A stretch of 64,000 bases of DNA, taken from UHGV virus genome UHGV-0036582; one strand, 5' to 3'. Numbering within the stretch: position 1 is the first letter of the stretch; every line of letters begins with the position of its first letter. Of the stretch, positions 5,916-61,836 are shown piece after piece. The notes beneath the pieces are model-generated. The model worked only from the letters and a program-made list of their open reading frames with translations, did no database searches and was not told where the DNA came from. Source of the DNA: a virus. The position numbers and the translations under genes were made by a program.

Positions 5916-5938
5916 TAATAAGTAAGTGATTACTTAGT
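5916..5938. promoter_or_regulatory. dyad TAAGTA/TACTTA motif in divergent promoter region
   Basis: ATAAGTAAGTGATTACTTAG between leftward helicase gene and rightward ParB-like gene; member of a recurrent intergenic motif family. Confidence 0.4.
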
Positions 5939-6635
5939 GGATTGTAGCAATAAAATGGATGTAAAAATCACGATTTTGCAGGTTGATGTTGCCAACCTTC
6001 GCCCGAATACCTGGAACACCAATTCGGTTGGTGCGCAGAATTTTGAAAAACTGAAAGGTTCTATCGAAAAATTGGGCTTTTTTAAGCCAATTTTGGCTCG
6101 TGAACTTGAAGATGGATTTTTTGAAATCCTCGGCGGCGAACATCGCTGGCGTGCTGCTATTGAGCAAGGAATTTCAACGGTTCCGGTGCTTTCTGTGGGC
6201 AAAATTAGCGATGTCGTAGCTAAACAGATGTCACTGGTGGACAACGAGCGATACGGTGAAGACGACCAAATCGCATTGCAACGCTTCATTGAAGAAATTC
6301 AGTCAGAACTTGACTATCAACTGTCTGAAATCGCCCCGTATGACGACGAAATCTCGATGGTTTTAGCAAAAGAGGCGGCAATCGACCTTGAAGCACTGGA
6401 GGCGTTGTCTCGTGGTAGTGATGAGCCTGTCGATACCGACAAACGAGAGAAAACCGAACGTGTGGGTGCGGAACATCAGACCATGCGCTTCAAAGTAACT
6501 TTCGATGCGTCAGATCGTGTTGCAGAAACCATAAAAAACATCATCAAAGAGCAGGCTATTAACACCGGTAATGAAATGGAGAACGCTGGTGAGGCTCTGG
6601 TGTGGCTGGTCGACTACTACAAGGAGCGTATGTAA
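5937..6635 (+). CDS. ParB-like nuclease-domain protein 1
   Basis: ParB/Srx N-terminal signature ILGGEHRWRAAIEQG (GxxRxRAA box); GTG start per ORF track. Confidence 0.65.
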   Translation: MDCSNKMDVKITILQVDVANLRPNTWNTNSVGAQNFEKLKGSIEKLGFFKPILARELEDGFFEILGGEHRWRAAIEQGISTVPVLSVGKISDVVAKQMSLVDNERYGEDDQIALQRFIEEIQSELDYQLSEIAPYDDEISMVLAKEAAIDLEALEALSRGSDEPVDTDKREKTERVGAEHQTMRFKVTFDASDRVAETIKNIIKEQAINTGNEMENAGEALVWLVDYYKERM

Positions 6636-7303
6636 TGACCAAAAAGTTTGAAATCGTATATCGCGACCCGGCAGATCTTATTCCCTATGAGATGAATGCC
6701 AAAAAGCATGATGAACAGCAGATCCGAGATCTGGCCGCAGCCATTAAAAAGCGCGGATTTGACCAGCCAATTACGGTCGATAAGAACGACGTAATTATTA
6801 CTGGCCACGGCCGCCGTGAGGCTGCAATTTTTGCTGGACTTGAGCGCGTACCGGTTATTGTTCGCGATGATCTCAGTGATGACGAGGTTCGTGCGAAGCG
6901 CCTTGAAGATAACCGACTTGCCAGCATTGATTACGATGCAATTAAGCTACAGAAAGAGCTTGAGTCGCTTGTTCTGGACGATATCGAGGTTTTCGGCTTT
7001 GAAGAGCGTGAGTTGAATGTTCTCGTTGGCAGTATGACAGAAGAAATGGACACCGACTCGCTAGTTATCGATCTTGGCGAAGAAACTAAACGACAGAAGG
7101 ATGAACACACCGAGATCAGTCGTGAAGTTGCAGCGGAAGAAGTACGTGTTGTCGACGTATTGGGCTTTAAAACGCTCCCTGCTGGCTCTGCCATTGTTGT
7201 TGGTGATTTGCTTGCCCATATGGAAGAAATGACGGGAGAAAGCGGGGTAGACGCATTTGTGGCATATGCGGAGAAGATCTCTTCCGGGGAGATGGCTGCA
7301 TGA
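6602..7303 (+). CDS. ParB-like nuclease-domain protein 2
   Basis: ITGHGRREAAIFAGL ParB-type arginine box; probable true start is the Met of MTKKFEIVY near 6636. Confidence 0.6.
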   Translation: MAGRLLQGAYVMTKKFEIVYRDPADLIPYEMNAKKHDEQQIRDLAAAIKKRGFDQPITVDKNDVIITGHGRREAAIFAGLERVPVIVRDDLSDDEVRAKRLEDNRLASIDYDAIKLQKELESLVLDDIEVFGFEERELNVLVGSMTEEMDTDSLVIDLGEETKRQKDEHTEISREVAAEEVRVVDVLGFKTLPAGSAIVVGDLLAHMEEMTGESGVDAFVAYAEKISSGEMAA

Positions 7304-7965
7304 GCAAATACATCATCAACATATCGTTTCAGACACGCGTAAATAAAACCACGCGCACGTTGGAAATCGCTGAGTCGTTCGGGCTTGGCCTGGACGAAAA
7401 AGAGTGGACGCTTTACGACAATCTGGAGCTGGAAGTGAAGCAGGGCGATGTGGTGTACATCACCGGCCAATCCGGTTCCGGCAAATCCGTTGTGCTGCGC
7501 GAGTTGCAACGACAGATGAAGGATGAAGGGCTGTCTGTAGCCTCCATCGATGATTTTACCTTCGATAATGAGGTTAACGTCATCGATCAGTTGGGCAAAA
7601 CGACCAGTGATGCGCTTGGGTTGTTATCTATGGCTGGTCTGAACGATGCATATCTGTTTGTTCGCAAGCCTTCTGAAATGTCAGACGGCCAGAAATATCG
7701 TCTCAAGATTGCCAAACTGATTGAGTCAGGCGCTAAAGTGTGGGCTGCTGACGAGTTCGGCGCTGTTCTCGACCGTGTAACCGCTCAGGTTGTGGCGTCT
7801 AACCTCCAGCGTGCCGCGCGAAAGGTTGGTGCGACGGTAATGGTGGCGACGACTCACGAAGACCTGAAGAACGCGCTGCGCCCGGATATGCAGATCACCA
7901 AGCACTACAAAGAACGCGTGAAGGTGGAATATCACAATGGTAGTCATGATGAGGTCCATTCATGA
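7300..7965 (+). CDS. stand-alone ABC-type ATPase
   Basis: Walker A GQSGSGKS, signature-like SDGQKYRL, Walker B VWAADEFG, H-loop ATTHED; no transmembrane domain. Confidence 0.65.
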   Translation: MSKYIINISFQTRVNKTTRTLEIAESFGLGLDEKEWTLYDNLELEVKQGDVVYITGQSGSGKSVVLRELQRQMKDEGLSVASIDDFTFDNEVNVIDQLGKTTSDALGLLSMAGLNDAYLFVRKPSEMSDGQKYRLKIAKLIESGAKVWAADEFGAVLDRVTAQVVASNLQRAARKVGATVMVATTHEDLKNALRPDMQITKHYKERVKVEYHNGSHDEVHS

Positions 7966-8852
7966 CGGACATCATCATTAAACGCTACCGCCCTGAAGAG
8001 TTTCCGCGTCATCTGGACTTTCTGGAGCGAATGACTGTTACAAAGGGAACTGTAGAGGACTGGCACGCTCTTAAGTCGCTTCACTACAAAACAGACGGCA
8101 AACCTTTCGCGCCAACTTACTATCGCTGCGAACTTGATGACCGTCTGGTGGGCGTCGTGGTTATGGCTTACCCGAAACTACTGTTGGCACCTCGCCACCG
8201 CATGTTTCCTAAGTTGAAACCAACCACTAATACCACCGTGGCTAACCAGTACTGGGGTCGGTACGTGAATAACAACTTTGCGGTGATCAGTCGCTCAGTT
8301 GTGGATACTCAGTATCGTGGCGTAGGCGTCTCTTATCGAATGATTAACCTGGTTAGCAGGATGCATGACCGGCCAATCATTGAGATCCAGTCCTCGATGA
8401 GCAAATACAATCCCTTCGCCATGAAAGCAGGGTTTAAGTTCATCCGCCCTGAGCGACCGAAGAGCTATGAAAGTGCACTGCGTGTATTCCAGCGCCATTT
8501 TCGTTCCGACCCGGGTGATAACGAGGCGATCGTCAAAGAGTTGTTCGCAATGAGCGAGTCTCGTCGTCGCCGTGCACTGCGTGATCTGGTGGCGGACTAC
8601 CATAAGAACAGTTCCCTGGCAAAAGCTGGGCGGAATCGTGGCACGACGATTCAGGACATTGCCGACAGTCTGGTGGACGAGGCCAGCATTGTGAAGTTGC
8701 TCAAGGACATTCACAACCTGAGCTTTACGTCTCCGTTGTATGGGGTGTATCGAAACCCTGACTTTGGTCGTCGACTGCCTGACACGCTGCCACTGCTGGC
8801 ATTCGACAAACAACCTTTGGATAAACCGTTAGAAATTGCTTTACCGGCATAA
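7962..8852 (+). CDS. GNAT-fold acyltransferase-like protein
   Basis: FAVISRSVVDTQYRGVGVSYRMINL (CoA-binding R-G-x-G) followed by NPFAMKAGFKFI (GNAT motif B); assignment by motif only. Confidence 0.5.
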   Translation: MTDIIIKRYRPEEFPRHLDFLERMTVTKGTVEDWHALKSLHYKTDGKPFAPTYYRCELDDRLVGVVVMAYPKLLLAPRHRMFPKLKPTTNTTVANQYWGRYVNNNFAVISRSVVDTQYRGVGVSYRMINLVSRMHDRPIIEIQSSMSKYNPFAMKAGFKFIRPERPKSYESALRVFQRHFRSDPGDNEAIVKELFAMSESRRRRALRDLVADYHKNSSLAKAGRNRGTTIQDIADSLVDEASIVKLLKDIHNLSFTSPLYGVYRNPDFGRRLPDTLPLLAFDKQPLDKPLEIALPA

Positions 8853-8861
8853 GGATTTGCC

Positions 8862-9128: not shown

Positions 9129-9152
9129 TCGGTCTGGGAGCTTATTTAAAGA

Positions 9153-9207
9153 CCTGCTTCTGTATATATAAATAATAAGTAACTTATTAAATATATACGG
9201 AAGCAGG
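9153..9207. repeat. 55-bp near-perfect palindromic element, copy 1
   Basis: CCTGCTTCTGTATATATAAATAATAAGTAACTTATTAAATATATACGGAAGCAGG, nested inside outer arms GGTCTGGG 9131-9138 / CCCAGACC 9222-9229; second copy at 40508-40562. Confidence 0.7.
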
Positions 9208-9270
9208 CTTAATAAGACATGCCCAGACCTAATTAAACAACCCAGAAAACAAGTTGGTTAGAAAATGCAG

Positions 9271-9957: not shown

Positions 9958-11213
9958 TGGCAATCCCGTCCTCGCTCAGTCTTGTGCAACTGCATTCTGG
10001 ACAGATGAAAGTCTTCCAGTCTCCGCATCGATTTAAAGTTGTTTGTGCTGGTCGACGCTGGGGAAAATCCCGGTTGTCGATCTCCACTATTATTCGTGCG
10101 GCGGCAAAGGAAAAAAAGCAAAGGGTCTGGTATGTCGCTCCTACTTACCAGATGGCTCGCCAGATTTTGTGGGACGATCTACAGGAAGTTCTGCCTCGTA
10201 AGTGGGTTAGGAAAAAGAACGACACCACGATGACAATCGTGTTGAAGAACGGTTCGGAGATCGCCCTCAAAGGTGCTGATAAGCCTGACACTCTGCGCGG
10301 CGTAGCGTTGCATTTTGTAGTGCTTGATGAATTTCAGGATATGAAGGCTGACACCTGGTACAAGGTGTTACGACCTACTCTTTCATCGACACGCGGCGGT
10401 GCACTGATCATTGGTACGCCAAAAGGTTTCTCGGAATTTCACAAACTGTGGACTATAGGCCAGAACGTAGAGCTGCAAAGAAAGGGACAGTGGAAGAGCT
10501 GGCAGTTTGTAACTGCCGATTCTCCGTTTGTGCCTACGGCGGAAATTGAAGCTGCTAAGAACGATATGGACCCGAAATCGTTCGCTCAGGAGTACCTGGC
10601 GAGCTTTGAGAACATGTCCGGGCGCGTTTACTACCCGTTCGATCGTAACGTGCATGTAAAACCGCTTCAGTTCAACCCTCGGTTGCCTATATGGGTAGGG
10701 CAGGACTTCAACATTGACCCGATGTCTTCAGTAATTTTGCAACCTCAGCCAAATGGTGAGCTATGGGCAATTGATGAATTGGTGCTCTTTTCCTCTAACA
10801 CGGCAGAGGTTTGTGATGAGCTTGAGAGACGCTTCTGGCGCTGGAAATCACAGATAACGGTATTTCCAGATCCGGCAGGTGCTTATCGCCAACATGCTCG
10901 CGGGGAGTCTGACGTCGACATATTCAAAGAGAAGGGATTCTTACGTGTCGATTATTCGAAAAAGCACCCGCCAATTGCGGATCGTGTTAATGCTGTTAAC
11001 CGAATGCTGATGACCGCATCTGGAGATATCCGGTTGTATATCGATCCGAAGTGCAAGCATTTGATTGATTCACTGGAAAAAGTCATCTACAAGCCTGGAA
11101 CACGAGATATGGATAAGACAGGTGGCATTGAGCATAGTGCAGACGCATTGGGCTATCCAGTACATCGTAGGTATCCAGTCAAAAACCGTGTTATTCTTGG
11201 TGGTTCTCGATAG
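9957..11213 (+). CDS. terL: terminase large subunit
   Basis: Walker A VVCAGRRWGKS, Walker B VVLDEFQD, C-terminal nuclease-like region; followed by portal gene. Confidence 0.85.
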   Translation: MAIPSSLSLVQLHSGQMKVFQSPHRFKVVCAGRRWGKSRLSISTIIRAAAKEKKQRVWYVAPTYQMARQILWDDLQEVLPRKWVRKKNDTTMTIVLKNGSEIALKGADKPDTLRGVALHFVVLDEFQDMKADTWYKVLRPTLSSTRGGALIIGTPKGFSEFHKLWTIGQNVELQRKGQWKSWQFVTADSPFVPTAEIEAAKNDMDPKSFAQEYLASFENMSGRVYYPFDRNVHVKPLQFNPRLPIWVGQDFNIDPMSSVILQPQPNGELWAIDELVLFSSNTAEVCDELERRFWRWKSQITVFPDPAGAYRQHARGESDVDIFKEKGFLRVDYSKKHPPIADRVNAVNRMLMTASGDIRLYIDPKCKHLIDSLEKVIYKPGTRDMDKTGGIEHSADALGYPVHRRYPVKNRVILGGSR

Positions 11214-11239
11214 GTAAGTAATTATCTAAGGTTATTCAA

Positions 11240-12814
11240 ATGGAATTGAACGACAAACAAATTAAGGATCTGGTGGCGCGACGCCACCCGGAATACGAAA
11301 AGAAAAAAGAACATTGGGACTTCCTCGCCAGCACTTACGCTGGCGGGCGTGGTTGGTTTACAGACAATATCTTTCGTTACTTTAAAGAGGGAGATCAGGA
11401 GTTTAAGGAGCGAGTTGAGCGTGCTTATCGCTTCAACCACACTCGTGAGGTGGTAAACCTCATCAACAAATATCTCTTTAAAGAAGACATTCATAGAAAT
11501 ATCGAAGAGGCACCAGAGCAGATCCGCAATTTCTGGAAACGTGCGACTCGCCAGAATGCCTCTATTGACTCATTTATGGCCGCTATTGATTTGCAGTCGT
11601 CTATTTACGGTCGCATATGGGTTGTTGTCGATAGCACGATGAGTGGTGATGTTGAGTCAGTAGCTGACGAGAAAAAGAAAGATGCTCGCGCCTACGCCTA
11701 CTGGATTTCACCTCAGCAAATGCTGGATGTGACATGGGACGACGACGGGAATATGTTGTGGGCGTTAATTGTGGAAGTCGCTCGTGATGACGCAGATCCT
11801 TTTACTTCTACAGGTCAGGAATACCAACGTTATCGTCTGTGGACACAAAACGAGTGGTATCTGTTCCGTGAGGAAGTGAAGAAGGGCGCTGGTGGAGCAG
11901 GTCGCCGTCAGGCAAAAGTTATTTTAGAGGATAGCGGTGAGCATAATCTCGGCGTAGTTCCTGTGTTTCCTGTTGATTGTATTGGAGAAAGTGAATCACC
12001 GTATTTCAGCCCATCGTTGATCGATGATATCGCTTATCTTGATCGTGCGGTTGCAAACTATCTGTCAAACCTTGATGCCATTATTCAGGATCAGACATTT
12101 AGCCAGTTGGCTATACCGGTACAGTCGCTTTTACCTGGTGATGAAAACCACACTAAAGTGCTTGAAATGGGCACAAAGCGAGTCTTCACCTACGATTCTG
12201 AAGGTGGAAACCAGCCGTTTTATCTGTCACCAGACCCGAAACAAGCTCAGATGATCATCACTACGATTAAGACGGTGATTAACGAAATCTACCATTCAGT
12301 TGGTGTAGCTGGTGAGCGAACGAAGCAGGACAACGCACAGGGAATCGATAATTCATCTGGTGCCGCAAAAATGTATGACTTCCAGCGTGTAAATAGCTTG
12401 CTTGTCACAAAAGCAGAGCGTCTGGAAAGGGCTGAACGCCAAATCATGCTACTGGTTGCGAAATGGATGGGGGTAGATCTGGACGAAGACCACTCTTTAA
12501 TTGCGTATCCAGAAAGTTTCGATATTCGTGGCCTTACTGATGAATTTTCTGTTGCCGAGAAACTGTCATTACTTCAGGCACCGGACTCTGTACGTCGTCA
12601 CCAGATGGAAATGCTTATTGAGAAGATTTTCCCGAACATTACTGAGGCGATGAAAAAGGAATTTGATAAAGATCTCTTGAATTTTCCTCCAAAAAATGAT
12701 CTAAATACCCTTGAAAATAAGTCAGTACTTACTTATGATCGTGGTGCAGCCCAAGAAAGCGGGCAAGATCAACCCCGAGGGAATGGGGACTCATCTACTC
12801 AAGAGAACGAGTGA
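11240..12814 (+). CDS. portal protein
   Basis: 524-aa ORF immediately after terL; size and position typical of portal. Confidence 0.7.
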   Translation: MELNDKQIKDLVARRHPEYEKKKEHWDFLASTYAGGRGWFTDNIFRYFKEGDQEFKERVERAYRFNHTREVVNLINKYLFKEDIHRNIEEAPEQIRNFWKRATRQNASIDSFMAAIDLQSSIYGRIWVVVDSTMSGDVESVADEKKKDARAYAYWISPQQMLDVTWDDDGNMLWALIVEVARDDADPFTSTGQEYQRYRLWTQNEWYLFREEVKKGAGGAGRRQAKVILEDSGEHNLGVVPVFPVDCIGESESPYFSPSLIDDIAYLDRAVANYLSNLDAIIQDQTFSQLAIPVQSLLPGDENHTKVLEMGTKRVFTYDSEGGNQPFYLSPDPKQAQMIITTIKTVINEIYHSVGVAGERTKQDNAQGIDNSSGAAKMYDFQRVNSLLVTKAERLERAERQIMLLVAKWMGVDLDEDHSLIAYPESFDIRGLTDEFSVAEKLSLLQAPDSVRRHQMEMLIEKIFPNITEAMKKEFDKDLLNFPPKNDLNTLENKSVLTYDRGAAQESGQDQPRGNGDSSTQENE

Positions 12815-14624: not shown

Positions 14625-14658
14625 TCAGTGTAGTAGATAAGTAGTTATCTATGTTAAA

Positions 14659-14684
14659 GGGTGGGCTATACGCCCACCCTTTTT
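14659..14684 (+). terminator. intrinsic terminator after capsid gene
   Basis: GGGTGGGC-TATAC-GCCCACCC followed by TTTTTG. Confidence 0.8.
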
Positions 14685-18203: not shown

Positions 18204-18277
18204 GTTAATCGGTAAGTATATACTTATTGTTAGCGCAATGAATGCGTAGAATTAACGGAAAAAGGAGTTTTCCATCA

Positions 18278-24701: not shown

Positions 24702-24750
24702 GTATCTGGATAAGTAAGTACTAATTTACTATCATTGTGGCGCTGACAGG

Positions 24751-31499: not shown

Positions 31500-31592
31500 T
31501 GGTGGAAAAAAAATTTTATATCGGTAAAAATAGGTAAGTACTTACTAAATGGCGGGCAAGGATAGCCCGCCAAATCAAGGAGCATATTCAAC

Positions 31593-35471: not shown

Positions 35472-35597
35472 ACAACCTCAACGAGAATTAGTTTAGAAAC
35501 AAGTTCTCATTAGTTTTTTAATATATATAGGTAAGTACACGCCTATTAATTGAGGGGTGAAATATGATATAAATCCGCCATCCCGATTTGGCTTTTC

Positions 35598-40562: not shown

Positions 40563-40671
40563 TCTTTTAAAAAGACACCCACCAGAACAACTCCCTTCCG
40601 TTTCCACTTCCAAAAACTGTCACCAGTCGCTATCATCCGCTCATTGTGATAAGTAAGTAACTACCTACCAG

Positions 40672-45097: not shown

Positions 45098-45278
45098 TTT
45101 TGGATTTTCACAAGATGGTTAGGTGGTTGTGGCTACTCGGTGTAAGGCTTTGTAATCACCGATTGGTAAGGTTACTTCAATTTAGCTTAACTGTCAGCAT
45201 ACCCAATCGCCGAAAAGATAAGTAGATGATTACTTATTGGTGTGTAAGAATACTGCCATCTGTTAGCTAGGAGTTGGT

Positions 45279-46061: not shown

Positions 46062-46128
46062 GCTCTCTGTGTGTCGTTTTTTACGCAAATAATGATAGGT
46101 AAGCACAAGATTATTTCTGGCGGTAATT

Positions 46129-48566: not shown

Positions 48567-48801
48567 AAACATCTCGATAAGTATTTACTTACTTATCTTT
48601 TATGTATAAGATGACTTTGTTTTCGTTGAGACGCGACTGTTTGAACTTAAATACAAGTGCAAACGAAGAAGTCTATCTGGCAGTAGCCTAATAAGCCAAA
48701 CACCAGCGAGGTCAGTTTCCAGCCTCGTTACCGAAATGGGACACACTGAGCGAGTGTGATTGCAGAACGCAGGAGGGAACATTCATGTTCCCTCCGATGA
48801 A

Positions 48802-49900: not shown

Positions 49901-49902
49901 GA

Positions 49903-49980: not shown

Positions 49981-50054
49981 ATAGACAATTACGGCAGACG
50001 TTCTTAACCATAGCTTGCTAACATCCTAGCAACACTTTTTTCAGCGCAAAATTC

Positions 50055-50078
50055 AAAGGGGCTTCGGCCCCTTTTTTG
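50055..50078. terminator. bidirectional intrinsic terminator
   Basis: AAA-GGGGC-TTCG-GCCCC-TTTTTT; ends both the tRNA transcript and the convergent minus-strand gene. Confidence 0.85.
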
Positions 50079-50092
50079 TTGAACAGTGCAAT

Positions 50093-51355: not shown

Positions 51356-51529
51356 GTATGTATTTCACTCTACTAACTATAAAATATTAGGCTAATGTTA
51401 ACCAAACAATGCCTTAATTAATAGATTGATCGAGGCTTTAATAGCTTTATAATGCAGACTGTAAAGATAAGTATGCACATACCTATCTTCTTTGTAAGTA
51501 AAGTTGCATATCAATTCTATGAGGTAACA

Positions 51530-51775
51530 ATGACGATCACTATCTACGGACGAGATAACTGCTCATACTGCAAACGTGCGGTCGAGCTGGCGAAGCAACT
51601 AAAGGGACATGGCTACGGTGATTATGAGTACATCGACATCACCACTGCCGGTATCGACAAGGAAAAACTAAGTGAAATTGTTGGTAAACCGGTAGAGACT
51701 ATCCCCCAAGTGCTGATCGATGGCCAACCGATTGGCGGATACACAGAACTGGCTGCATACGTCAGCACCCTCTGA
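51530..51775 (+). CDS. glutaredoxin (NrdC-like)
   Basis: ITIYGRDNCSYCKRA CxxC active site; C-terminal PQVLIDGQPIGGY; ATG 51530 after GAGGTAA RBS. Confidence 0.75.
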   Translation: MTITIYGRDNCSYCKRAVELAKQLKGHGYGDYEYIDITTAGIDKEKLSEIVGKPVETIPQVLIDGQPIGGYTELAAYVSTL

Positions 51776-51780
51776 TTTTA

Positions 51781-51805
51781 ACGGCTCACAGGAGCCGTTT
51801 TTATT
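51781..51805 (+). terminator. intrinsic terminator after glutaredoxin gene
   Basis: ACGGCTC-ACAG-GAGCCGT followed by TTTTATT. Confidence 0.8.
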
Positions 51806-51854
51806 CCCACCAAACTCACTCCCGTTTCCCTTAAAATTCAAAAAACAACGTCAA

Positions 51855-51887
51855 AATGATTCCATACCTACTATGTATGGAATCATT
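51855..51887. promoter_or_regulatory. 12-bp perfect inverted repeat upstream of recombinase gene
   Basis: AATGATTCCATA-cctactatg-TATGGAATCATT; left arm is the third copy of the AAATGATTCCATAC repeat. Confidence 0.5.
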
Positions 51888-51985
51888 GCTGAAAATGAGT
51901 TACTTTTACTCTTGATCCTATAAGAATCTATGCCTAATATACTGTTTACTTATACAGTGCATCGGCGTAACTCGGTGATTGTCAT

Positions 51986-53089
51986 ATGAAAAATAGCTTT
52001 GACAGAGCACGCGCTGCGGAGAACACCTCAAAAGAGGCGATAGAGTATCTCGAAAGAGCATCTCAAATGCAGGCCGTTATGATCTCCCAGGTCAGCAATG
52101 ACATGAGATTCTCGGACGCATTCATGTTATTCACTCGCTTATCTCTGCTGATAACCAGACGTCGGCCAGAGATCGCTGTTCATTGTATTTTGATACATGT
52201 TTTGCCGCACCTTGCCGATGTAAAAGTAAGTGACATTAATAGGTTCATGGTGAACCAACTGGTCAACCCACTAATACTGGATGGCAAAATTGTTATGGGC
52301 CGCCGCGTTTTCTCTCTGATGAAGCAGTTCCTTAGCTGGTGCGCCTTCCAGGGGATGATAGACGTGTCACCGTTAAACGATATGTCACTTAACAATGTTG
52401 CCGGTGGCGCAAAGCCCACACCTCGCGAGCGGAAGCTGACCGACGCAGAGGTATGGGTGTTCTGGAATATATGGGACTACTTCAATGTGTGCGCTGGTAC
52501 AAAATGGGCGGCCAGGCTATGTCTTGTATCCGCAAGACGACCTGACGAAGTACTGCGGGCTAAAAAAAGTGAGTTCAACCTCCAGCGTGGGGTTTGGAAT
52601 CAAGGCAAGAGAAACAAATCAGCCCGTGAGCATTCTCTGCCTTTAAGCACATTAATGCGCACATGCATTGAAGAGTTATTCGAATATGGTAAAGGCAGCC
52701 AGTGGCTTGTGCCTTCGAATAAAAAAATCGGGAATGATCTTCCGATGTCTAAAGTGGCAATAGCCCAGGCATTACGCCGTATCCTGGAACGACCAGAACT
52801 GATGGAGCTTGAGCCATTTACACCCCGAGATTTGCGTCGTACTGCGCGTAGTTACTTCCCAGCATTAGGCATAAGCCAGGAGGTATCACGCAAAATCATG
52901 AACCACAGTCTTGAGGGGATAGATCGGGTCTACGACCGGCACGATTATATGGACGAGATGCGAGACGCCTTAGAAAGTTTCTCGACGTACATCGCATCAA
53001 TCGTAGAGCAACCGGATTTAGACGAAATTGACCACAAATTCAAGGGAGATCGTCTATCAACAGAGCTTATTCGTGTAAATTTTTCATAG
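51986..53089 (+). CDS. tyrosine recombinase / phage integrase family
   Basis: C-terminal catalytic block PRDLRRTARS ... MNHS ... VYDRHDY (Arg/His/Tyr positions of the tyrosine recombinase fold); 367 aa. Confidence 0.7.
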   Translation: MKNSFDRARAAENTSKEAIEYLERASQMQAVMISQVSNDMRFSDAFMLFTRLSLLITRRRPEIAVHCILIHVLPHLADVKVSDINRFMVNQLVNPLILDGKIVMGRRVFSLMKQFLSWCAFQGMIDVSPLNDMSLNNVAGGAKPTPRERKLTDAEVWVFWNIWDYFNVCAGTKWAARLCLVSARRPDEVLRAKKSEFNLQRGVWNQGKRNKSAREHSLPLSTLMRTCIEELFEYGKGSQWLVPSNKKIGNDLPMSKVAIAQALRRILERPELMELEPFTPRDLRRTARSYFPALGISQEVSRKIMNHSLEGIDRVYDRHDYMDEMRDALESFSTYIASIVEQPDLDEIDHKFKGDRLSTELIRVNFS

Positions 53090-53470
53090 AGACTTTATGG
53101 CCTCAACAACCTTTTGTGATGCGCCTTTCTCTTTACCGAATCGCTCGTTATATGCAGCAAGAACCTGTTTTTCGTCCTCGTTAAGAGGCGCAGTGCCTTC
53201 TTTGTATAAAAATGCTGCGAGTTCAGGTTGGCGTTCTTCCAGCACCATCATCATAAGACGACTTGGCTCAATACCCAGCGCCAGCGCCAGCGGACGAACC
53301 TTATCGATAGGCAAAGGAATTTTGCCACTTTTAATTAAAGAAAGGTTGTTGGCATTTTTATAACCAATAAGTCTAGCTATTTGGGCCTGACTCATAGGTG
53401 AGGATTCAATCAGCCCTGCGATAAAAGCAGCATAGCGACTTTCTATAAATTCAATCTTGTTGTCAGACAT
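53084..53470 (-). CDS. XRE-family HTH transcriptional regulator (repressor-like)
   Basis: SQAQIARLIGYKNANNLSLIKSGK helix-turn-helix; no peptidase domain; convergent with recombinase, divergent from downstream operon. Confidence 0.7.
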   Translation of the reverse strand: MSDNKIEFIESRYAAFIAGLIESSPMSQAQIARLIGYKNANNLSLIKSGKIPLPIDKVRPLALALGIEPSRLMMMVLEERQPELAAFLYKEGTAPLNEDEKQVLAAYNERFGKEKGASQKVVEAIKSL

Positions 53471-53501
53471 TGTTACAACCTTTGCGCGTTTAATTCTCTC
53501 T

Positions 53502-53515
53502 GGTAAGTGCTTACC
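53502..53515. promoter_or_regulatory. GGTAAG...CTTACC palindrome in divergent promoter region
   Basis: GGTAAGTGCTTACC; further GGTAAG/CTTACC half-sites at about 53617 and 53685. Confidence 0.45.
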
Positions 53516-53721
53516 GATATTACATCAAAGGTTAGGGTTGTAAAGCTATTATCATTTTTTTCGGCAGGCACTTGTAAGACCGAGCAAAGGCCCACGCATG
53601 GAGAAAAACTAGCCCAAAATAGGTAAGAAAATTAACTTGCATCTGATATGGATGTATTCAGTATTGATATAATTTTTAGTAGTATTCCTTACCATAGTAT
53701 AAGTTAGAATGGATTGATTGA

Positions 53722-53934
53722 ATGAACACCACTATTTCCAGCCTAATCGCTCTTGAGATCGGACACGTACAAAAATTAGCTGATGAATGTGTAGCTGACA
53801 TTCTCACCGATCTACCGAATGAGCAGATTCAGGTTGGTGTGAATGACACAACTGGCTTTATATTCGAACTTAACAACAAACGCTTCACGCTTCTCAATAC
53901 CGGCTCCGGGTCTTTAGCCGTCAGAATCTGTTAA
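53722..53934 (+). CDS. hypothetical small protein
   Basis: 70-aa ORF divergent from regulator gene. Confidence 0.35.
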   Translation: MNTTISSLIALEIGHVQKLADECVADILTDLPNEQIQVGVNDTTGFIFELNNKRFTLLNTGSGSLAVRIC

Positions 53935-54032
53935 CCCCTCTTCTCCCTGCGCGAATGGCTTAGTTCCCTGTTCGCGCAGTGCTACATTAAACATACTAGT
54001 AAATAATTTGTTTTCATAACAAAGGATTAGCC

Positions 54033-56132
54033 ATGTCTAAAAAACGTTCCATCAAAGAGGTTCAGGACTTCCGTGACAGTGTAAAACGAGTAGTCGCTCT
54101 CCTTTCAGGTAAAAACATCCCTGTTGCAGAACGAGGGGACGACGCTTATGTACGCTATAACGATGATGGAGAGCCAATTCTCGTAAACATCCCATCAATC
54201 CCGGATAACGCAACACCAGCATTGATGAATGCTGTGCGCGGATTTCTCGATCATGAGGTTGCTCACATTTTGTTTACCGATATTCATGTGTCCAACAAAA
54301 TGAGAGAAAAAGGACGCGTTCCTTCCTGGTCGCTATGGAATGCCTTAGAAGACGTGTTTATCGAGCGAAAAATGGGGCAGGTCTTTAACGGAACAAGACG
54401 TAATCTGATGGCAACTCAGCGCCTTATAATCGAAAAAGTCTTTAAACCAAAGGCTTCAGAGGCTATTACTTATTGTGGCAAAGATCAGCGCGCGCTTTTT
54501 CTAAACTTCTTTCTCTGTCCGGTTGTAAGAGCCTGGGATGGCCAAGCACCGTTCGTAGATTTCATGGATGAATACTGGCCTGTCATTGAGAAACCAATTT
54601 CATTATTAAAAGAACATGGTATCGATGTGGCCGTGCGTAACATGTCTTGCACCGGGGATTGTTTAAAGGTGGCTGCGACCATCGCTAAGATCCTCAAAGA
54701 CACAGAAAGTGAAAGCAAAGGTAAGGAGTCAGCTCCGGGAAAAACTTCCGATCCTTCAGACGCTGATCACGCGGATTCCTCTGGAGAAGGCGATGAAGAT
54801 CACAAGACACCCGAATCGTTAGATAATCACATATCTATTAAAGAAAATTCAAAAGGTAAGCACAAATACGATAATAACAACAGTGATAATTCAGATAACT
54901 CTGAATCATCAGAAACAATATTCGATGATACAGAAAATGATAAAGAGGTATCAGATTCTGGTGCTTCTGATAACGCGGCGTCAGAAGCATTGACCACTGA
55001 CCACGAAAAAAGAAAATCGACAGAAGACGGCTCTTCAGACATTCCAACTCCGTCAAAAATGAGTCTGGAAGAGGCTTTAGAGGAGTTGGATAGCATGGAA
55101 GATGAAGTCGGAGGCATGACAGAAGATGCGCTATCCGAAACGATTAAAAGCGAGTTAACAGAAAGCTCGAAAAGCGAATACAGGCCATACAATCGCTCAT
55201 ACGACTTCATCGGCTCGATTGATCAGGCAGAAGCCCATATCAAACGGCTTATTAAAACATTCTCCGATATTGATTTAGGTGGATATCCAATCAGCCGTTA
55301 TCGCATCGTTCCTGAAGGCAACCAACTCTTCGACAAATATATTGAAAAGCACCTTTCGTCAGGTGTTTCGTCGACGCTGGCAAAAGACCTGGAACGTGCA
55401 ATAGCAAGCAGAAACAGAGTTCAGTTTATACCTGGCCAGCGTCGGGGGCGCATTCATGGTTCAAGTATCTACAGATTAACAATGAATGATGATCGCGTGT
55501 TTCGTAAAAAAGAAGAATCTAAAGCCGTTAACGCCTGTGTTCAACAAGTGATTGATTTATCAGGTTCAATGAGTGGTATAACGATACAATTGGCTCTTGC
55601 AAGTGCATATACCATCGCCGATGCCCTTGATCGAATAAATGTTCCCAACATTATCACCGGCTTCACTACATTTGGTAGTCATATGGCGGCAGGAGAACTT
55701 AAGGCTGTCAAGTATGAGTTCTCTCGCTTTGAATCTTTAATGCTACCTATCATCAAAAATTGGAATGAAAAGGTAAATTCTCGCGAAGTTCGCTCACGTA
55801 TGGGGTGCGTAGGCTACACATTCCCACTTCTTAATAACGTGGATGGTGAAAGCATAGCCAGCCTTGCATCGTTATTTTCCGGTCGCATGGAGGACAGGAA
55901 GATCATGCTTGTTCTGAGTGATGGCGCGCCGTGGGCTGTTGGGAGAGGTTTTGACGCTCATTTGCGTTCGGTTGCGAAGCAAATTGAAACGCAGACTGAT
56001 ATTGATTTGATGGCAATTGGCATCATGACTGACGCACCGGAGAGATTTTACTCAAATCATGCCCTGGTAACGAGCGTTGATAGTCTTGGTTCATCTGTAG
56101 TTACTGAACTATCTCGTATCATTTTAAAGTGA
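54033..56132 (+). CDS. CobT-like von Willebrand factor A (VWA) domain protein
   Basis: C-terminal MIDAS motif VIDLSGSMSG; long acidic Ser/Asp/Glu-rich insert at about 54700-55100. Confidence 0.7.
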   Translation: MSKKRSIKEVQDFRDSVKRVVALLSGKNIPVAERGDDAYVRYNDDGEPILVNIPSIPDNATPALMNAVRGFLDHEVAHILFTDIHVSNKMREKGRVPSWSLWNALEDVFIERKMGQVFNGTRRNLMATQRLIIEKVFKPKASEAITYCGKDQRALFLNFFLCPVVRAWDGQAPFVDFMDEYWPVIEKPISLLKEHGIDVAVRNMSCTGDCLKVAATIAKILKDTESESKGKESAPGKTSDPSDADHADSSGEGDEDHKTPESLDNHISIKENSKGKHKYDNNNSDNSDNSESSETIFDDTENDKEVSDSGASDNAASEALTTDHEKRKSTEDGSSDIPTPSKMSLEEALEELDSMEDEVGGMTEDALSETIKSELTESSKSEYRPYNRSYDFIGSIDQAEAHIKRLIKTFSDIDLGGYPISRYRIVPEGNQLFDKYIEKHLSSGVSSTLAKDLERAIASRNRVQFIPGQRRGRIHGSSIYRLTMNDDRVFRKKEESKAVNACVQQVIDLSGSMSGITIQLALASAYTIADALDRINVPNIITGFTTFGSHMAAGELKAVKYEFSRFESLMLPIIKNWNEKVNSREVRSRMGCVGYTFPLLNNVDGESIASLASLFSGRMEDRKIMLVLSDGAPWAVGRGFDAHLRSVAKQIETQTDIDLMAIGIMTDAPERFYSNHALVTSVDSLGSSVVTELSRIILK

Positions 56133-56227
56133 ACAAAACAGCCTTAATGATAAGTAACCACTTACGATAGATAATGATATATTTATATAAGAAGTTGAAC
56201 GCTCATTAGAGAACAAAGGAAAAACGC

Positions 56228-61162: not shown

Positions 61163-61170
61163 TCCCATAA

Positions 61171-61197
61171 ACATGGCCTCTATGGCCATGTTTTCCC
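61171..61197 (+). terminator. putative terminator after dnaE
   Basis: ACATGGCC-TCTAT-GGCCATGT followed by TTTCCC; T-tract weak. Confidence 0.5.
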
Positions 61198-61287
61198 TTA
61201 TCCCCTCATATCCCCTATCCTCGAACTCCTTGCCTTATCATCACAATGATATAATCAATATAAAATGATAAGTAAAAAGGAAAGCAC

Positions 61288-61719
61288 ATGATCACCGATA
61301 TTTACGAGAAAATAATGTCTGATCTCGAGTTTGACCGAGACAATCTGGAGGAAGTCTGGCGTAGACAACCCCGCCTTTTAATGGAGTATGGCTCAAAACT
61401 CGCTCATGCAGAAAGAAGTGTCGCAGAGGCAAAACTTAACCTTGAAGCTGTTGAAGCAAAGCTATACGACACAGAGCGTAAGAACTTGAGTATGAACGGC
61501 ATTAAGTTCAACGAGTCTGTACTGGACGCTAAGGTTAAAACAAACCCACAGTATCTGTCTAAACGGCAGAAGTTGGATGAAGCACGGCACATCGCAGACA
61601 TATACAAACATGCTGTCGCCGCCTTTTCGCATCGCCGAGACATGATCGTTCAGGCGTCAAAGATGGCCATCGTTGAATTAGAGCGATTAGGCTCTGAACG
61701 CTTTATTACTCCCCGTTGA
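61288..61719 (+). CDS. hypothetical protein, possibly UvsY-like recombination mediator
   Basis: 143 aa, helical; loose resemblance to the T4 UvsY N-terminal pattern; position upstream of SSB. Confidence 0.3.
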   Translation: MITDIYEKIMSDLEFDRDNLEEVWRRQPRLLMEYGSKLAHAERSVAEAKLNLEAVEAKLYDTERKNLSMNGIKFNESVLDAKVKTNPQYLSKRQKLDEARHIADIYKHAVAAFSHRRDMIVQASKMAIVELERLGSERFITPR

Positions 61720-61836
61720 TTTTTGATAGATAATAAGTAAGTACTGATCTATCATTTAACAGCTCGAAAGAGCCACGAATGAACGAAAGCCCAACGCGCA
61801 TAGCGCCATCGGCCAAATCACAACAAGGAGAAACAC

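What the first reader, a model, noticed from the sequence alone, without database searches (positions are those of the whole stretch)
5916..61750. Recurrent dyad-symmetric TAAGTA / TACTTA motif upstream of at least 14 rightward genes
Sites such as GATAAGTAAGTA, TAGGTAAGTACTTACTA, GGTAAGTATATACTTATT, GATAAGTATTTACTTACTTATC and ATAAGTAGATGATTACTTAT occur in intergenic DNA at about 5916, 11209, 14632, 18209, 24708, 31529, 35519, 40647, 45217, 46096, 48577, 53502/53617, 56145 and 61726. Almost all lie 25-100 bp upstream of a rightward gene start. Half-sites are inverted with variable spacing, which suggests binding by a dimeric factor, or a phage-specific promoter element. The same half-site forms a palindrome (GGTAAGTGCTTACC) in the divergent promoter region next to the XRE regulator gene, making that regulator a candidate binder.
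Basis: seen in the sequence. Interest (0 to 1): 0.55.

Follow-up and report, generated by a model that had tools for sequence, protein, structure and literature searches.

The report
Phage-plasmid lytic-gene control palindrome
A 22-base palindromic DNA site sits in front of nearly every lytic gene block of an SSU5/pHCM2-type phage-plasmid and is most likely the docking site of one plasmid-encoded regulator that switches the whole viral programme on or off.

Summary
The window is an SSU5/pHCM2/pMT1-type phage-plasmid. The TAAGTA/TACTTA hits are parts of one fixed-geometry 22-bp palindrome, rATARGTAAGT·ACTTACYTATy. It occurs 15-16 times in the window against 0.4 expected, and about 24 times in the whole genome. 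Almost all copies are intergenic, lying just after the stop codon of one lytic gene block and before the next. Orthologous sites are conserved in Cyrano, SSU5 and Y. pestis pMT1. Distant lineages keep the architecture but change the sequence (K. oxytoca TATGTA-N6-TACATA; Acinetobacter TCAGTC-N6-GACTGA), so the binder is encoded by the element. There is no base-pair covariation and no G·U bias, so it is a duplex-DNA site and not an RNA hairpin. A -10-like hexamer lies at a fixed distance, there is no -35, and canonical sigma-70 promoters are depleted. Best reading (about 0.5): dispersed promoter-operator modules bound by a dimeric HTH repressor. The XRE protein beside the integrase is the best candidate but is unproven. 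Main rival (about 0.3): an activator-dependent promoter class like P1 late promoters, although no Lpa homologue exists. The motif appears undescribed. It is a new member of a known kind and of moderate interest.

The parts
5917..5938 (.). Site AATAAGTAAGTGATTACTTAGT in the divergent region between the leftward UvsW-helicase operon and the rightward ParB-like operon
   Evidence: PWM 23.5/17.9 bits. The -10-like hexamer on the mirror (leftward) side is TATTAT/TATAAT; the rightward one is poor. The leftward operon is expressed in lysogens and the rightward one is silent.
11209..11230 (.). Site GATAGGTAAGTAATTATCTAAG overlapping the TerL stop codon and the portal RBS
   Evidence: 25.7 bits. Centre is 20 nt before the portal ATG. 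Orthologous sites in Cyrano, SSU5 and pMT1.
12716..12737 (.). Site AATAAGTCAGTACTTACTTATG inside the 3' end of the portal gene, 109 nt before the next gene
   Evidence: 22.8/22.9 bits. Identical in Cyrano, SSU5 and pMT1. Flagged as sigma-70-like: TTGAAA-17-TATGAT.
14632..14653 (.). Site AGTAGATAAGTAGTTATCTATG just after the major capsid gene, followed by a terminator hairpin at 14656-14682
   Evidence: 21.9/18.6 bits. Hairpin.
18207..18228 (.). Site AATCGGTAAGTATATACTTATT before the tail gene
   Evidence: 25.5 bits. The Cyrano orthologue precedes CYRAN_12, which steps up by 2.5 log2 in the macrophage 6 h condition.
24709..24730 (.). Site GATAAGTAAGTACTAATTTACT before minor tail protein L, followed by hairpin 24739-24761
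   Evidence: 26.1 bits. TGGATA-17-TATCAT flagged. Hairpin.
31529..31550 (.). Site AATAGGTAAGTACTTACTAAAT before the tail-fibre gene, followed by hairpin 31551-31571
   Evidence: 22.3/21.0 bits. Hairpin.
35526..35547 (.). Site TATAGGTAAGTACACGCCTATT before the holin/lysis block
   Evidence: 24.9 bits. The SSU5 orthologue is a perfect 22-bp palindrome, TGTAGGTAAGCGCTTACCTACA.
40648..40669 (.). Site GATAAGTAAGTAACTACCTACC between the partition genes expressed in lysogeny and the silent replication block
   Evidence: 25.7 bits. In Cyrano, expression drops about 100-fold across this junction, from CYRAN_30 to CYRAN_31.
45217..45238 (.). Site GATAAGTAGATGATTACTTATT before the gene at 45279
   Evidence: 15.8-17.9 bits. 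Its Cyrano orthologue precedes CYRAN_34, which steps up by 1.9-3.4 log2 in all conditions.
46094..46115 (.). Weaker site GATAGGTAAGCACAAGATTATT (good left half, poor right half)
   Evidence: 20.2 bits forward only. 4 of 11 positions self-complementary.
48576..48597 (.). Near-perfect palindrome GATAAGTATTTACTTACTTATC at the start of the tRNA/accessory region
   Evidence: 17.3/26.0 bits. Conserved in Cyrano, SSU5 and pMT1.
51426..51487 (+). Canonical sigma-70 promoter TTGATC-16-TATAAT (51426-51453) followed by site GATAAGTATGCACATACCTATC (51466-51487) at about +6 to +27
   Evidence: Promoter 10/12, site 18.7/19.7 bits, sequence read. This is an operator-type placement.
53498..53544 (-). Predicted XRE promoter (TTTACA-16-TAATAT on the - strand) with the core palindrome GGTAAGTGCTTACC starting 1 nt after the -10 hexamer
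   Evidence: Weak site, 12.4 bits. The same placement is conserved in K. pneumoniae (GGTAAGTACTTACC), and lineage-specific variants occur in Acinetobacter, K. oxytoca and Moellerella.
53084..53470 (-). XRE-family HTH gene (128 aa), the best candidate binder and lysogeny repressor
   Evidence: HTH_19 / phrog_8 transcriptional regulator. Repressor-like fold. Conserved in all motif lineages. Expressed in lysogens. Absent from the lytic isolate SSU5, which is a recent deletion derivative.
53620..53641 (.). Left half-site only (AATAGGTAAGA...), about 50 bp upstream of an extended -10 promoter TGATATAAT (53665-53673) for the cro-like gene at 53722
   Evidence: Sequence read. No right half. Function doubtful.
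56145..56170 (.). Site ...GATAAGTAACCACTTACGATAG before the CobS-like AAA gene; register ambiguous (56145 or 56149)
   Evidence: 18.4 bits. ATGATA-17-GATAAT flagged.
61732..61753 (.). Site AATAAGTAAGTACTGATCTATC before the SSB gene
   Evidence: 24.2/23.2 bits. TAGATA-17-TATCAT flagged.
54818..54839 (.). Weak intragenic match GTTAGATAATCACATATCTATT; probably not functional
   Evidence: 13.8/15.9 bits. Lies inside the CobT-like gene.

Best explanation
The motif is a duplex-DNA binding site for an element-encoded dimeric helix-turn-helix regulator. It has two 6-bp half-sites, TARGTA and TACYTA, separated by a 6-bp centre and set within a 22-26 bp palindrome. One copy sits at the head of nearly every lytic transcription unit, about 24 per genome. 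Each copy covers a -10-like hexamer in a region that has no -35 element. I read these as promoter-operator modules. In the plasmid-prophage state a repressor occupies all the sites and holds the structural, lysis, replication and nucleotide-metabolism blocks off directly, which also blocks read-through from plasmid-maintenance genes. When the repressor is lost, all blocks are released together. The best candidate repressor is the XRE-family protein at 53084-53470, whose own promoter carries a weaker copy at its start site (autoregulation). Shown: the motif is real, it acts as DNA and not RNA, it is conserved and has lineage-specific variants, it sits next to promoter-like sequence, and it lies at or after the start site of the two canonical promoters beside it. 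Inferred: the sign of regulation (repression) and the identity of the binder.
For: Enrichment and intergenic placement. Orthologous conservation in Cyrano, SSU5 and pMT1, with drift that preserves the consensus. Lineage-specific variants with the same architecture, and flanks that are unrelated between sites, which point to a co-evolving element-encoded binder. K. oxytoca and K. pneumoniae elements differ in motif although their hosts are close relatives, which argues against a host factor. No G·U excess (89 against 84 A·C) and no covariation at the polymorphic pairs 5/18 and 6/17 in 73 unique sites, so recognition is of duplex DNA. The invariant positions form two 6-bp half-sites, as expected for an HTH dimer. 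Where a canonical sigma-70 promoter lies next to a site, the site is at or just after the start site: P51426 with the site at about +6 to +27, and P_XRE with the core palindrome 1 nt after the -10. In lysogens the genes downstream of sites are silent, and expression steps down across site junctions (B6: -1.05 against +0.43). In the partly derepressed macrophage 6 h condition, weaker sites go with higher downstream expression (Spearman rho -0.43 to -0.51, p 0.02-0.06, n = 20), as expected for operators losing occupancy. XRE is the only classical HTH protein conserved in all three motif lineages, has a repressor-type fold and is expressed in lysogens. It has a lineage-specific site upstream of its gene in every lineage. 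It is missing from SSU5, the one member isolated as a lytic phage, which is a recent deletion derivative.
Against: No canonical promoter accompanies most sites. There is no -35, and the only fixed element is a -10-like hexamer that is itself part of the palindrome. A repressor-only model therefore leaves open what drives lytic transcription. The register between palindrome and -10 is fixed to within about 1 bp at some 25-33 independent sites. Activators require that; repressors do not. The Acinetobacter asymmetry (TAnnnT on the gene side in 16/36 sites against 2/36 on the mirror side, p = 2e-4) shows a directional promoter function. The XRE recognition helix differs among lineages that share the TARGTA half-site, so specificity covariation is not demonstrated. 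The sites in the XRE/cro region are the weakest in the genome, not the strongest. The leftward helicase operon, which starts at a good site, is moderately expressed in lysogens. The RNA-seq correlations are borderline and were among several tests. Direct repression of every late operon with no cascade is unusual.
Confidence: 0.5

Rival explanations
1. The motif is an activator-dependent promoter class, analogous to phage P1 late promoters. It would be the recognition element, centred near -20, of an element-encoded transcription activator that recruits host sigma-70 RNA polymerase to promoters that have a -10 hexamer but no -35. Every lytic block would then depend on this one factor. The copy at the XRE promoter would let the same factor shut off repressor synthesis, as Cro does.
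For: A TAnnnT hexamer begins at +8 from the centre in 46-56% of sites, with no other positional -10 or -35 signal. That places the palindrome at about -30 to -9. P1 late promoters have the same layout, AAGTnACTT-N4-TAnnAT with no -35, as extracted from the P1 record, and the motif core is AAGT·ACTT. Canonical sigma-70 promoters are depleted and absent upstream of lytic operons (14 against 28, 19 against 32, 13 against 21). The register is fixed at independent sites whose flanks are unrelated. Acinetobacter sites break symmetry only on the gene side to create a -10 (p = 2e-4). In the macrophage 6 h condition, 5 of the 8 largest step-ups between neighbouring genes fall at sites (p = 0.03). The element shares other genes with P1 (Cra, TciA/B, tRNAs, tail fibre).
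Against: No Lpa homologue exists in any of the genomes (tblastn E = 0.46; full-sensitivity HMM E > 1). No candidate activator conserved across lineages was found. The FljA-like 'regulator' has a tandem Hfq/Sm RNA-binding fold and is absent from Acinetobacter. The wHTH helix of CYRAN_123 is invariant across motif classes. In enterobacterial and K. oxytoca elements the -10-like hexamer is equally present on the mirror side (2.87 against 2.53, p = 0.32), so it may simply be part of the palindrome. Several sites centre only 11-27 nt from the start codon and overlap the RBS, leaving no leader for a start site near +20. Stronger sites go with lower, not higher, expression under partial induction. 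At the two canonical promoters the site lies at or after the start site.
Confidence: 0.3
2. The palindrome acts at the RNA level. It would be transcribed into a hairpin or a single-stranded motif in intercistronic RNA, where it serves as a processing, stability or translational-repression signal, possibly bound by the FljA-like tandem-Sm protein in the way FljA acts on fliC mRNA.
For: The element encodes an FljA-family protein (PF03614, E = 2.5e-84) with a tandem Hfq-like fold, and it is expressed in lysogens. FljA-type proteins are reported to block fliC mRNA translation (PMC2652032). Several sites overlap ribosome-binding sites.
Against: There is no excess of G·U over A·C and no covariation between paired positions in 73 unique sites. 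Both halves are conserved as sequence, which a single-stranded RNA motif would not need. Rfam finds nothing at the sites. The FljA-like gene is absent from Acinetobacter elements, which have 33 sites. The E. coli fliC leader shares only ATAGG with the motif.
Confidence: 0.04
3. The motif is a non-transcriptional DNA site: dispersed centromere or ParB/KorB-type loading sites, recombination or replication signals, or a host-factor site.
For: Two ParB_N-domain proteins are encoded immediately downstream of the first site and are conserved in all lineages. Dispersed centromere-like repeats are known in the phage-plasmid N15, and KorB operators are dispersed on RK2 (own knowledge).
Against: Sites are tied to gene-block boundaries and absent from the plasmid-maintenance region. 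The ParB-like proteins match only the ParB N-terminal domain, with no HTH detected, and are silent in lysogens. The motif differs between elements of closely related Klebsiella hosts, which argues against a host factor. A separate 55-bp palindrome, present twice, is a better candidate for a structural DNA site.
Confidence: 0.08

Closest known systems
Phage P1 late promoters (Lpa/SspA-dependent; -22 box AAGTnACTT, N4, then a -10 hexamer)
   Same: Both occur in a phage-plasmid of enterobacteria. Both have a palindromic element with AAGT/ACTT half-sites centred about 20 bp upstream of the start site, a -10-like hexamer at a fixed distance, no -35 and many copies heading lytic operons. Some are bidirectional (P1 LP26/LPpmgL; here the site at 5917).
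   Different: The element here is a 22-bp palindrome with core AAGT·ACTT (no central base) and a 3-nt instead of 4-nt gap to the hexamer. It heads replication and nucleotide-metabolism genes as well as late genes. No Lpa homologue is present. The -10-like hexamer is mirrored on both sides in the enterobacterial lineages.
Phage P1 C1 repressor with about 17 or more dispersed operators
   Same: One immunity repressor acts directly at many operators scattered over a phage-plasmid of about 100 kb, overlapping or following promoters. This would make immunity hard to swap by exchanging a module.
   Different: C1 operators are asymmetric 17-mers (ATTGCTCTAATAAATTT) and C1 is not an XRE protein. No C1 homologue is present here. 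In P1 the late operons are controlled indirectly through Lpa, whereas here the same site also precedes the late operons.
Lambdoid CI/Cro-type (434/P22/XRE) operators
   Same: Palindromic sites with two half-sites of about 6 bp for an HTH dimer. There is a copy at the repressor's own promoter in a divergent repressor/cro-like region. The candidate binder has the XRE fold.
   Different: Lambdoid operators are confined to the immunity region, usually three per side, and those are the strongest sites. Here the copies in the immunity region are the weakest, and about 24 strong copies are dispersed genome-wide.
KorB (ParB-family) global repressor of plasmid RK2 with 12 dispersed palindromic operators
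   Same: About a dozen or more identical palindromes are spread over a mobile element and coordinate many operons, at positions both near to and distant from promoters.
   Different: The ParB-like proteins here show only the N-terminal ParB domain and are silent in the plasmid state. Nothing links them to the motif.

Membership tests
P1-type late promoter (Lpa-dependent) | -10 hexamer TAnnnT at a fixed distance from the upstream box | tested here: inconclusive
   TAnnnT starts at +8 from the centre in 46-56% of sites but is equally present on the mirror side in enterics (p = 0.32). It is directional only in Acinetobacter (16/36 against 2/36, p = 2e-4).
P1-type late promoter (Lpa-dependent) | 9-bp inverted repeat AAGTnACTT centred near -22, 4 nt from the -10 | tested here: not met
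   P1 boxes were extracted from the annotated record. Here the core is AAGT·ACTT without the central base, embedded in a 22-bp palindrome with a 3-nt gap. An exact AAGTAACTT occurs only in the separate 55-bp palindrome.
P1-type late promoter (Lpa-dependent) | No -35 element | tested here: met
   No positional -35 signal. The -35 score at 16-18 bp spacing is no better than on the mirror side.
P1-type late promoter (Lpa-dependent) | Lpa (PF25716) activator encoded by the element | tested here: not met
   tblastn best E = 0.46. An HMM built from 8 Lpa sequences against all ORFs of six genomes gives best E = 1.5. The Lpa family is confined to P1-like elements.
P1-type late promoter (Lpa-dependent) | Dependence on host SspA and transcription late in infection | not testable with these tools
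   Needs in vitro transcription or infection time-course data.
Dispersed repressor operators (P1 C1 type) | Many operator copies scattered over the genome at lytic promoters | tested here: met
   About 24 sites in Cyrano, 25 in SSU5, 18 in pMT1 and 16 in the window, all at gene-block boundaries.
Dispersed repressor operators (P1 C1 type) | C1 protein and the asymmetric 17-bp operator consensus | tested here: not met
   No C1 homologue (E = 3.3). The motif here is a symmetric 22-mer.
Dispersed repressor operators (P1 C1 type) | Operators overlap or follow promoters so that binding blocks RNA polymerase | tested here: met
   At the two canonical promoters the site lies at or after the start site. 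Elsewhere it covers the only -10-like hexamer. Actual occupancy is not testable here.
XRE/CI-type HTH repressor operator | Palindrome with two half-sites about one helical turn apart | tested here: met
   The invariant positions 3-8 and 15-20 flank a more variable 6-bp centre in all three lineages.
XRE/CI-type HTH repressor operator | Copies between the repressor gene and a divergent cro-like gene | tested here: met
   Imperfect, lineage-specific copies are present in the window, K. pneumoniae, K. oxytoca, Acinetobacter and Moellerella, but they are the weakest sites.
XRE/CI-type HTH repressor operator | The cognate repressor binds the site; its recognition helix covaries with the half-site | tested here: inconclusive
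   The helix is identical in E. coli, Y. pestis and Buttiauxella and differs in K. oxytoca and Acinetobacter. It also differs in K. pneumoniae and Moellerella, which share the TARGTA half-site. Binding itself is not testable here.
Structured RNA element (hairpin, RNase III site or terminator) | Selection for base-pairing: compensatory changes and G·U tolerated on the sense strand | tested here: not met
   G·U 89 against A·C 84. The paired fraction at polymorphic positions equals the expectation under independence. No Rfam family matches. No T-tract follows the palindrome.
ParB/KorB-type operator | ParB-family protein with an HTH that reads a palindrome and is expressed in the plasmid state | tested here: not met
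   Only the ParB_N domain is detected. No HTH segment is visible in the alignment. CYRAN_119 and CYRAN_120 are silent in lysogens.

The most novel reading that the evidence does not exclude
A viral programme of about 100 kb has no early-to-late cascade. Instead, one palindrome serves both as the core promoter element and as the single switch point for about 25 separate lytic transcription units. It would be read either by one repressor that gates every unit directly, or by an activator unrelated to Lpa that has converged on the geometry of P1 late promoters. Because sites and reader must co-evolve genome-wide, this would define 'regulatory species' of phage-plasmids (TARGTA, TATGTA and TCAGTC types) that cannot exchange immunity modules.
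Probability: 0.3. Interest if true: 0.65.

Novelty: new member of a known kind. Interest (0 to 1): 0.5.

Why it matters
SSU5/pHCM2/pMT1-type phage-plasmids are widespread in clinical Escherichia, Salmonella, Klebsiella, Enterobacter, Yersinia pestis and Acinetobacter; 863 plasmid records carry the XRE homologue. The papers found here report that phage-plasmids, including SSU5-type elements, carry resistance genes. Their regulation is essentially uncharacterised. This motif supplies a genome-wide map of their lytic transcription units. It gives a concrete, testable candidate for the lysis-lysogeny switch: one 22-mer and one 128-aa protein. It offers three natural specificity variants for swap experiments. 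It also provides a simple sequence marker for annotating operons and for classifying these elements by regulatory type. If the repressor model holds, titrating or inactivating one protein should induce the whole element, which is relevant to curing or weaponising these plasmids.

Tried and rejected
1. An unrestricted PWM refinement drifted into AT-rich sequence and was discarded. It was replaced by a fixed-register PWM and by orientation-neutral consensus matching.

2. I first argued that SSU5 keeps the sites without the XRE gene and so excludes XRE. I retracted this: SSU5 is 99% identical to plasmids on the flank, and 0 of 822 plasmids are colinear across the junction, so the deletion is recent.

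3. RNA hairpin model: rejected on the absence of covariation.

4. FljA-like protein as the binder: attractive at first (PF03614, divergent in the K. oxytoca lineage, expressed in lysogens). Rejected because it has a tandem Hfq/Sm fold, is absent from Acinetobacter, is unrelated to Lpa (hhalign probability 0.9%), and the fliC leader lacks the motif.

5. P1 Lpa or C1 homologues: none found.

6. CYRAN_123 (88-aa wHTH-like): its helix is invariant across motif classes.

7. ParB-like proteins: no HTH, and silent in lysogens.

8. Directional -10 or -35 in enterobacterial sites: not significant.

9. General step-up of RNA-seq signal at sites: not found; only the macrophage 6 h condition is marginal.

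10. GC hairpins downstream of sites: real, but only at about 5 orthologous loci.

11. MerR-type spacer operator: rejected, because there is no -35 at 19-20 bp spacing.

12. Moellerella site polarity: 7 against 2, not significant.

13. A scan of species-representative genomes for XRE loci gave only 5 loci, so the plasmid collection was used instead.

Full report
**What the window is.** Megablast places the window in the SSU5/pHCM2 family of phage-plasmids. It is 96-99% identical to Escherichia phages CMS-2020a, PhiR41_1 and Cyrano (the plasmid-prophage of E. coli LF82), about 80% identical to Salmonella phage SSU5, and about 77-79% identical to Klebsiella phage-plasmids. The annotated Cyrano record gives the gene map.
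- Window 5.9-39.6 kb holds the ParB-like genes, terminase, head, tail and lysis genes.
- 38.5-40.4 kb holds partition genes.
- 40.7-63.9 kb holds replication genes, a tRNA cluster, an integrase/XRE/cro-like module, CobT/CobS-like genes, the DNA polymerase III alpha subunit and SSB.
- Almost all lytic genes run rightward.

**Checking the observation.**
- TAAGTA is about twofold enriched, 44 copies against 21.1 +/- 4.8.
- The real signal is a longer element. RRTAAGTANNNAYYTA occurs 13 times against 0.01 expected, and 12 of the 13 lie in the 10.4% of the window that is noncoding.
- A fixed-register PWM gives paired hits on the two strands exactly 13 bp apart. Every site therefore has a single centre of symmetry.
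- The ideal site is the 22-bp palindrome GATAAGTAAGT·ACTTACTTATC.
- At 15 bits or more the window has 16 sites against 0.40 in composition-preserving shuffles.
46094 is weaker, 53498 is a 14-bp core only, and 53617 is a half-site.
- Sites begin 4-55 bp after the stop codon of the upstream gene (overlapping it at 11209). Their centres lie 13-109 bp before the next start codon.

**Genome-wide and comparative picture.**
- The same PWM finds 24 sites in Cyrano (0.6 expected), 25 in SSU5 (0.25 expected) and 18 in Yersinia pestis pMT1, at 14-15 bits or more.
- They occupy orthologous positions: before portal, the gene after portal, the Ig-domain gene after the capsid gene, tail, minor-tail L, fibre, holin, the gene before the replicative helicase, CobS, SSB, SbcD, NrdA, ThyX, Dam and others.
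- None precedes repA, parA, the toxin-antitoxin genes or the repressor.
- Orthologous sites differ in sequence yet keep the consensus, which indicates selection on the motif itself.
- More distant lineages keep the architecture with a changed sequence. A K. oxytoca element has 28 sites of type TATATGTA-N6-TACATATA. An Acinetobacter baumannii element has 33 sites of type AATCAGTCAsT·ACTGACT.
- The flanks of the Acinetobacter sites are unrelated, so these are not duplicated cassettes.
- K. pneumoniae and Moellerella elements use the E. coli-type TARGTA half-site.
- The K. oxytoca and K. pneumoniae elements differ in motif although their hosts are close relatives. The reader of the motif must therefore be encoded by the element and must co-evolve with all of its sites.

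**DNA or RNA.** A palindrome could act as an RNA hairpin, so I tested 73 unique enterobacterial sites, oriented with the downstream gene.
- Sense-strand G·U pairs number 89 and A·C pairs 84, so there is no bias.
- At the polymorphic positions 5/18 (A or G, T or C) and 6/17, the observed Watson-Crick counts (35 and 41) equal those expected if the halves vary independently (about 33 and 42).
- Rfam finds only tRNAs in the window.
- There is therefore no selection for pairing. The site is read as duplex DNA by a symmetric protein.
- The near-invariant positions are 3-4, 6-8 and their mirrors 15-17 and 19-20. That amounts to two 6-bp half-sites around a more variable centre, which is the classic footprint of a helix-turn-helix dimer.

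**Relation to promoters.**
- With all sites anchored on their centres, the only positional signal is a TAnnnT hexamer starting at +8 (motif positions 19-24). It is present in 46-56% of sites. There is no -35 signal at any spacing.
- If that hexamer is the -10, the palindrome spans about -30 to -9 and is centred near -19.5.
- Canonical sigma-70 matches are depleted in the window: 13 against 20.8, 14 against 28.2 and 19 against 31.8.
- Essentially the only + strand matches upstream of lytic genes are those that reuse motif positions 19-24 as their -10 (12711, 24707, 56147, 61727; also 18195).
- However, in enterobacterial and K. oxytoca elements the hexamer is equally present on the mirror side (mean scores 2.87 against 2.53, p = 0.32). 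A full promoter score shows no strand bias in any lineage. There the hexamer may simply be the outer arm of a palindrome of about 26 bp.
- Acinetobacter is the informative case, because its palindromic consensus ends in GATT and does not itself form a TAnnnT. The gene-proximal arm departs from symmetry to create TAnnnT at +7 to +9 in 16 of 36 sites, against 2 of 36 on the mirror side (Fisher p = 2e-4). Position 4 is C in 29/33 sites, whereas its mirror position 19 is G in only 18/33 (p = 0.006).
- So at least in that lineage the element carries a directional -10 in a fixed register.

**Comparison with P1.**
- I extracted the annotated P1 late promoters. They are AAGTnACTT (the '-22 region'), 4 nt, then TAnnAT, with no -35.
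- The present motif has the same half-site letters (core AAGT·ACTT) and nearly the same position.
- It lacks the central base, is embedded in a much longer palindrome, and has a 3-nt gap.
- P1 Lpa (PF25716) has no homologue in any of six genomes, by tblastn or by a full-sensitivity HMM search. P1 C1 has none either.

**Who reads it.** Proteins conserved in all three motif lineages include the XRE-family protein next to the integrase (46-48% identical), two ParB_N-domain proteins, an 88-aa protein (CYRAN_123), CYRAN_31 and TerS.
- An FljA-family protein (PF03614, E = 2.5e-84) in the leftward helicase operon looked attractive. Its model is a tandem Hfq/Sm fold (pLDDT 81; Foldseek probability 1.0, rmsd about 1.1 A to Hfq). 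It is unrelated to Lpa (hhalign probability 0.9%) and absent from Acinetobacter. That matches the reported action of FljA on fliC mRNA (PMC2652032) and makes it an RNA binder, not a reader of duplex palindromes. The E. coli fliC leader shares only ATAGG with the motif.
- The putative recognition helix of CYRAN_123 is invariant across motif classes.
- The ParB-like proteins show only the N-terminal domain and are silent in lysogens.
- The XRE protein remains. It has a standard phage-repressor HTH fold. It is expressed in lysogens at log2 about 6.4-10.4 against a background near 3. In every lineage examined it has an imperfect copy of that lineage's own motif variant 30-50 bp upstream of its start codon.
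- Its recognition helix is identical in E. coli, Y. pestis and Buttiauxella and differs in K. oxytoca and Acinetobacter. It also differs in K. pneumoniae and Moellerella, which share the E. coli half-site. The covariation is therefore permissive and not diagnostic.
- I initially took SSU5, which lacks the integrase/XRE/cro module but keeps all sites, as evidence against XRE. That was wrong. SSU5 is 99% identical to Enterobacter plasmids on the flank, and none of 822 matching plasmids is colinear across the junction, so the deletion is recent. If anything, the one member isolated as a plaque-forming lytic phage being the one without XRE supports XRE as the lysogeny repressor.

**Activation or repression.** Three observations favour repression.
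- First, where a canonical sigma-70 promoter lies beside a site, the site is at or after the start site. TTGATC-16-TATAAT at 51426-51453 is followed by a near-perfect site at about +6 to +27. The predicted XRE promoter (TTTACA-16-TAATAT, - strand) has the core palindrome 1 nt after its -10.
- Second, in LF82 RNA-seq (S1 Table of PMC9928086) the genes downstream of sites are at background in lysogens. Expression tends to step down, not up, across site junctions (B6: -1.05 against +0.43).
- Third, in the partly derepressed macrophage 6 h condition, site strength correlates negatively with downstream expression (rho -0.43 to -0.51, p 0.02-0.06, n = 20). That is expected if weak operators lose occupancy first, and it is the opposite of a simple activator model.
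- These RNA-seq results are borderline and come from non-induced populations.

Other observations favour a promoter or activator role.
- There are no independent promoters for the lytic blocks.
- The register with the -10 is fixed.
- Acinetobacter sites are polar.
- In the macrophage 6 h condition 5 of the 8 largest step-ups fall at sites (p = 0.03): CYRAN_12, 34, 56, 60 and 81.

The two views are compatible if the sites are composite promoter-operator modules.

**Conclusion and scores.**
- That the motif is a real, conserved, lineage-specific duplex-DNA control site for an element-encoded dimeric protein at the head of lytic transcription units is very likely (about 0.85-0.9).
- Within that, I put about 0.5 on dispersed operators of a repressor with XRE as the best candidate, and about 0.3 on an activator-dependent promoter class of the P1-late type with an unknown activator unrelated to Lpa.
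- The remainder goes to RNA-level or non-transcriptional functions.
- Targeted literature searches found no description of the motif in this family.
- It is a new member of a known kind, namely a phage regulon of dispersed operator or promoter elements.
- Interest is moderate. The family is clinically widespread and its regulation is unstudied, and the three natural specificity classes make the hypothesis directly testable.

Noticed in passing
window 9152-9214 and 40507-40569: A separate near-perfect AT-rich palindrome of about 55 bp (CCTGCTTCTGTATATATAAATAATAAGTAACTTATTAAATATATACAGAAGCAGG) is present at two loci 31 kb apart. The first copy lies just upstream of terS and spans the position (9190/9191) where the Cyrano and SSU5 records begin. 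The second lies between the partition genes and the replication block. Its centre is an exact P1-type -22 box (AAGTAACTT). Candidate functions are a packaging or genome-end site, a centromere, or a bidirectional promoter.
   Followed up: partly
window 3012-3533 (-): An FljA-family protein (PF03614, 'repressor of phase-1 flagellin') is conserved in enterobacterial members of the family. Its model is a tandem Hfq/Sm fold, and it is expressed in lysogens (CYRAN_114, log2 about 4 in LB and about 7-8 in the other conditions). The Acinetobacter relative lacks it but carries a 179-aa Hfq gene upstream of its DnaB-like helicase (L016 9706-10245). This suggests a phage-plasmid-encoded RNA-level regulator whose target is unknown. 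It also hints that flagellar FljA may derive from such elements.
   Followed up: partly
L006 (SSU5) about 42600-42760, compared with window 49900-54030: Salmonella phage SSU5 lacks the whole integrase / XRE repressor / cro-like module found in the plasmid forms. Its flank is 99% identical to Enterobacter plasmids, so it is a recent deletion derivative. That may explain why it behaves as a lytic phage.
   Followed up: partly
window 50093-51355 (-): A 420-aa leftward gene lies in a region of 34% G+C, against about 46% for the rest of the window. It appears to have no counterpart at this position in the Cyrano annotation and is probably an acquired accessory or defence gene. The strong canonical promoter plus motif site at 51426-51487 lies immediately next to it.
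   Followed up: no
window 49343-49900: A cluster of four tRNA genes (Asn-GTT, Tyr-GTA, Thr-TGT, Ser-TGA). Part of it is about 93% identical to the tRNA region of phages P7, P1 and D6.
   Followed up: partly
window 14656-14682, 24739-24761, 31551-31571; Cyrano 67899-67920: At about five orthologous loci (after the capsid gene, tail, minor-tail L, fibre, NrdA), strong GC-rich hairpins begin 11-21 nt after the site centre. They sit at or across the start site predicted from a -10 at motif positions 19-24. The one after the capsid gene is a bidirectional terminator. The order is always site then hairpin, not hairpin then site.
   Followed up: partly
whole window: Canonical sigma-70 promoter matches are about half as frequent as in dinucleotide shuffles in all three segments scanned (13 against 20.8, 14 against 28.2, 19 against 31.8). 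This suggests selection against spurious host-type promoters.
   Followed up: partly
window 53665-53673: A perfect extended -10 promoter (TGATATAAT) lies upstream of the 70-aa cro-like gene at 53722. In LF82 this gene (CYRAN_46) rises about 90-fold in macrophages at 6 h while the XRE gene stays high, so the switch region responds to intracellular stress without completing the lytic cycle.
   Followed up: partly
Cyrano CYRAN_43 (L001 40268-40822, -); the window equivalent was not mapped: This 'hypothetical protein' locus is by far the most abundant transcript of the element in lysogens, about 720 times background. It might be a small RNA or a highly expressed moron rather than a protein gene.
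   Followed up: no
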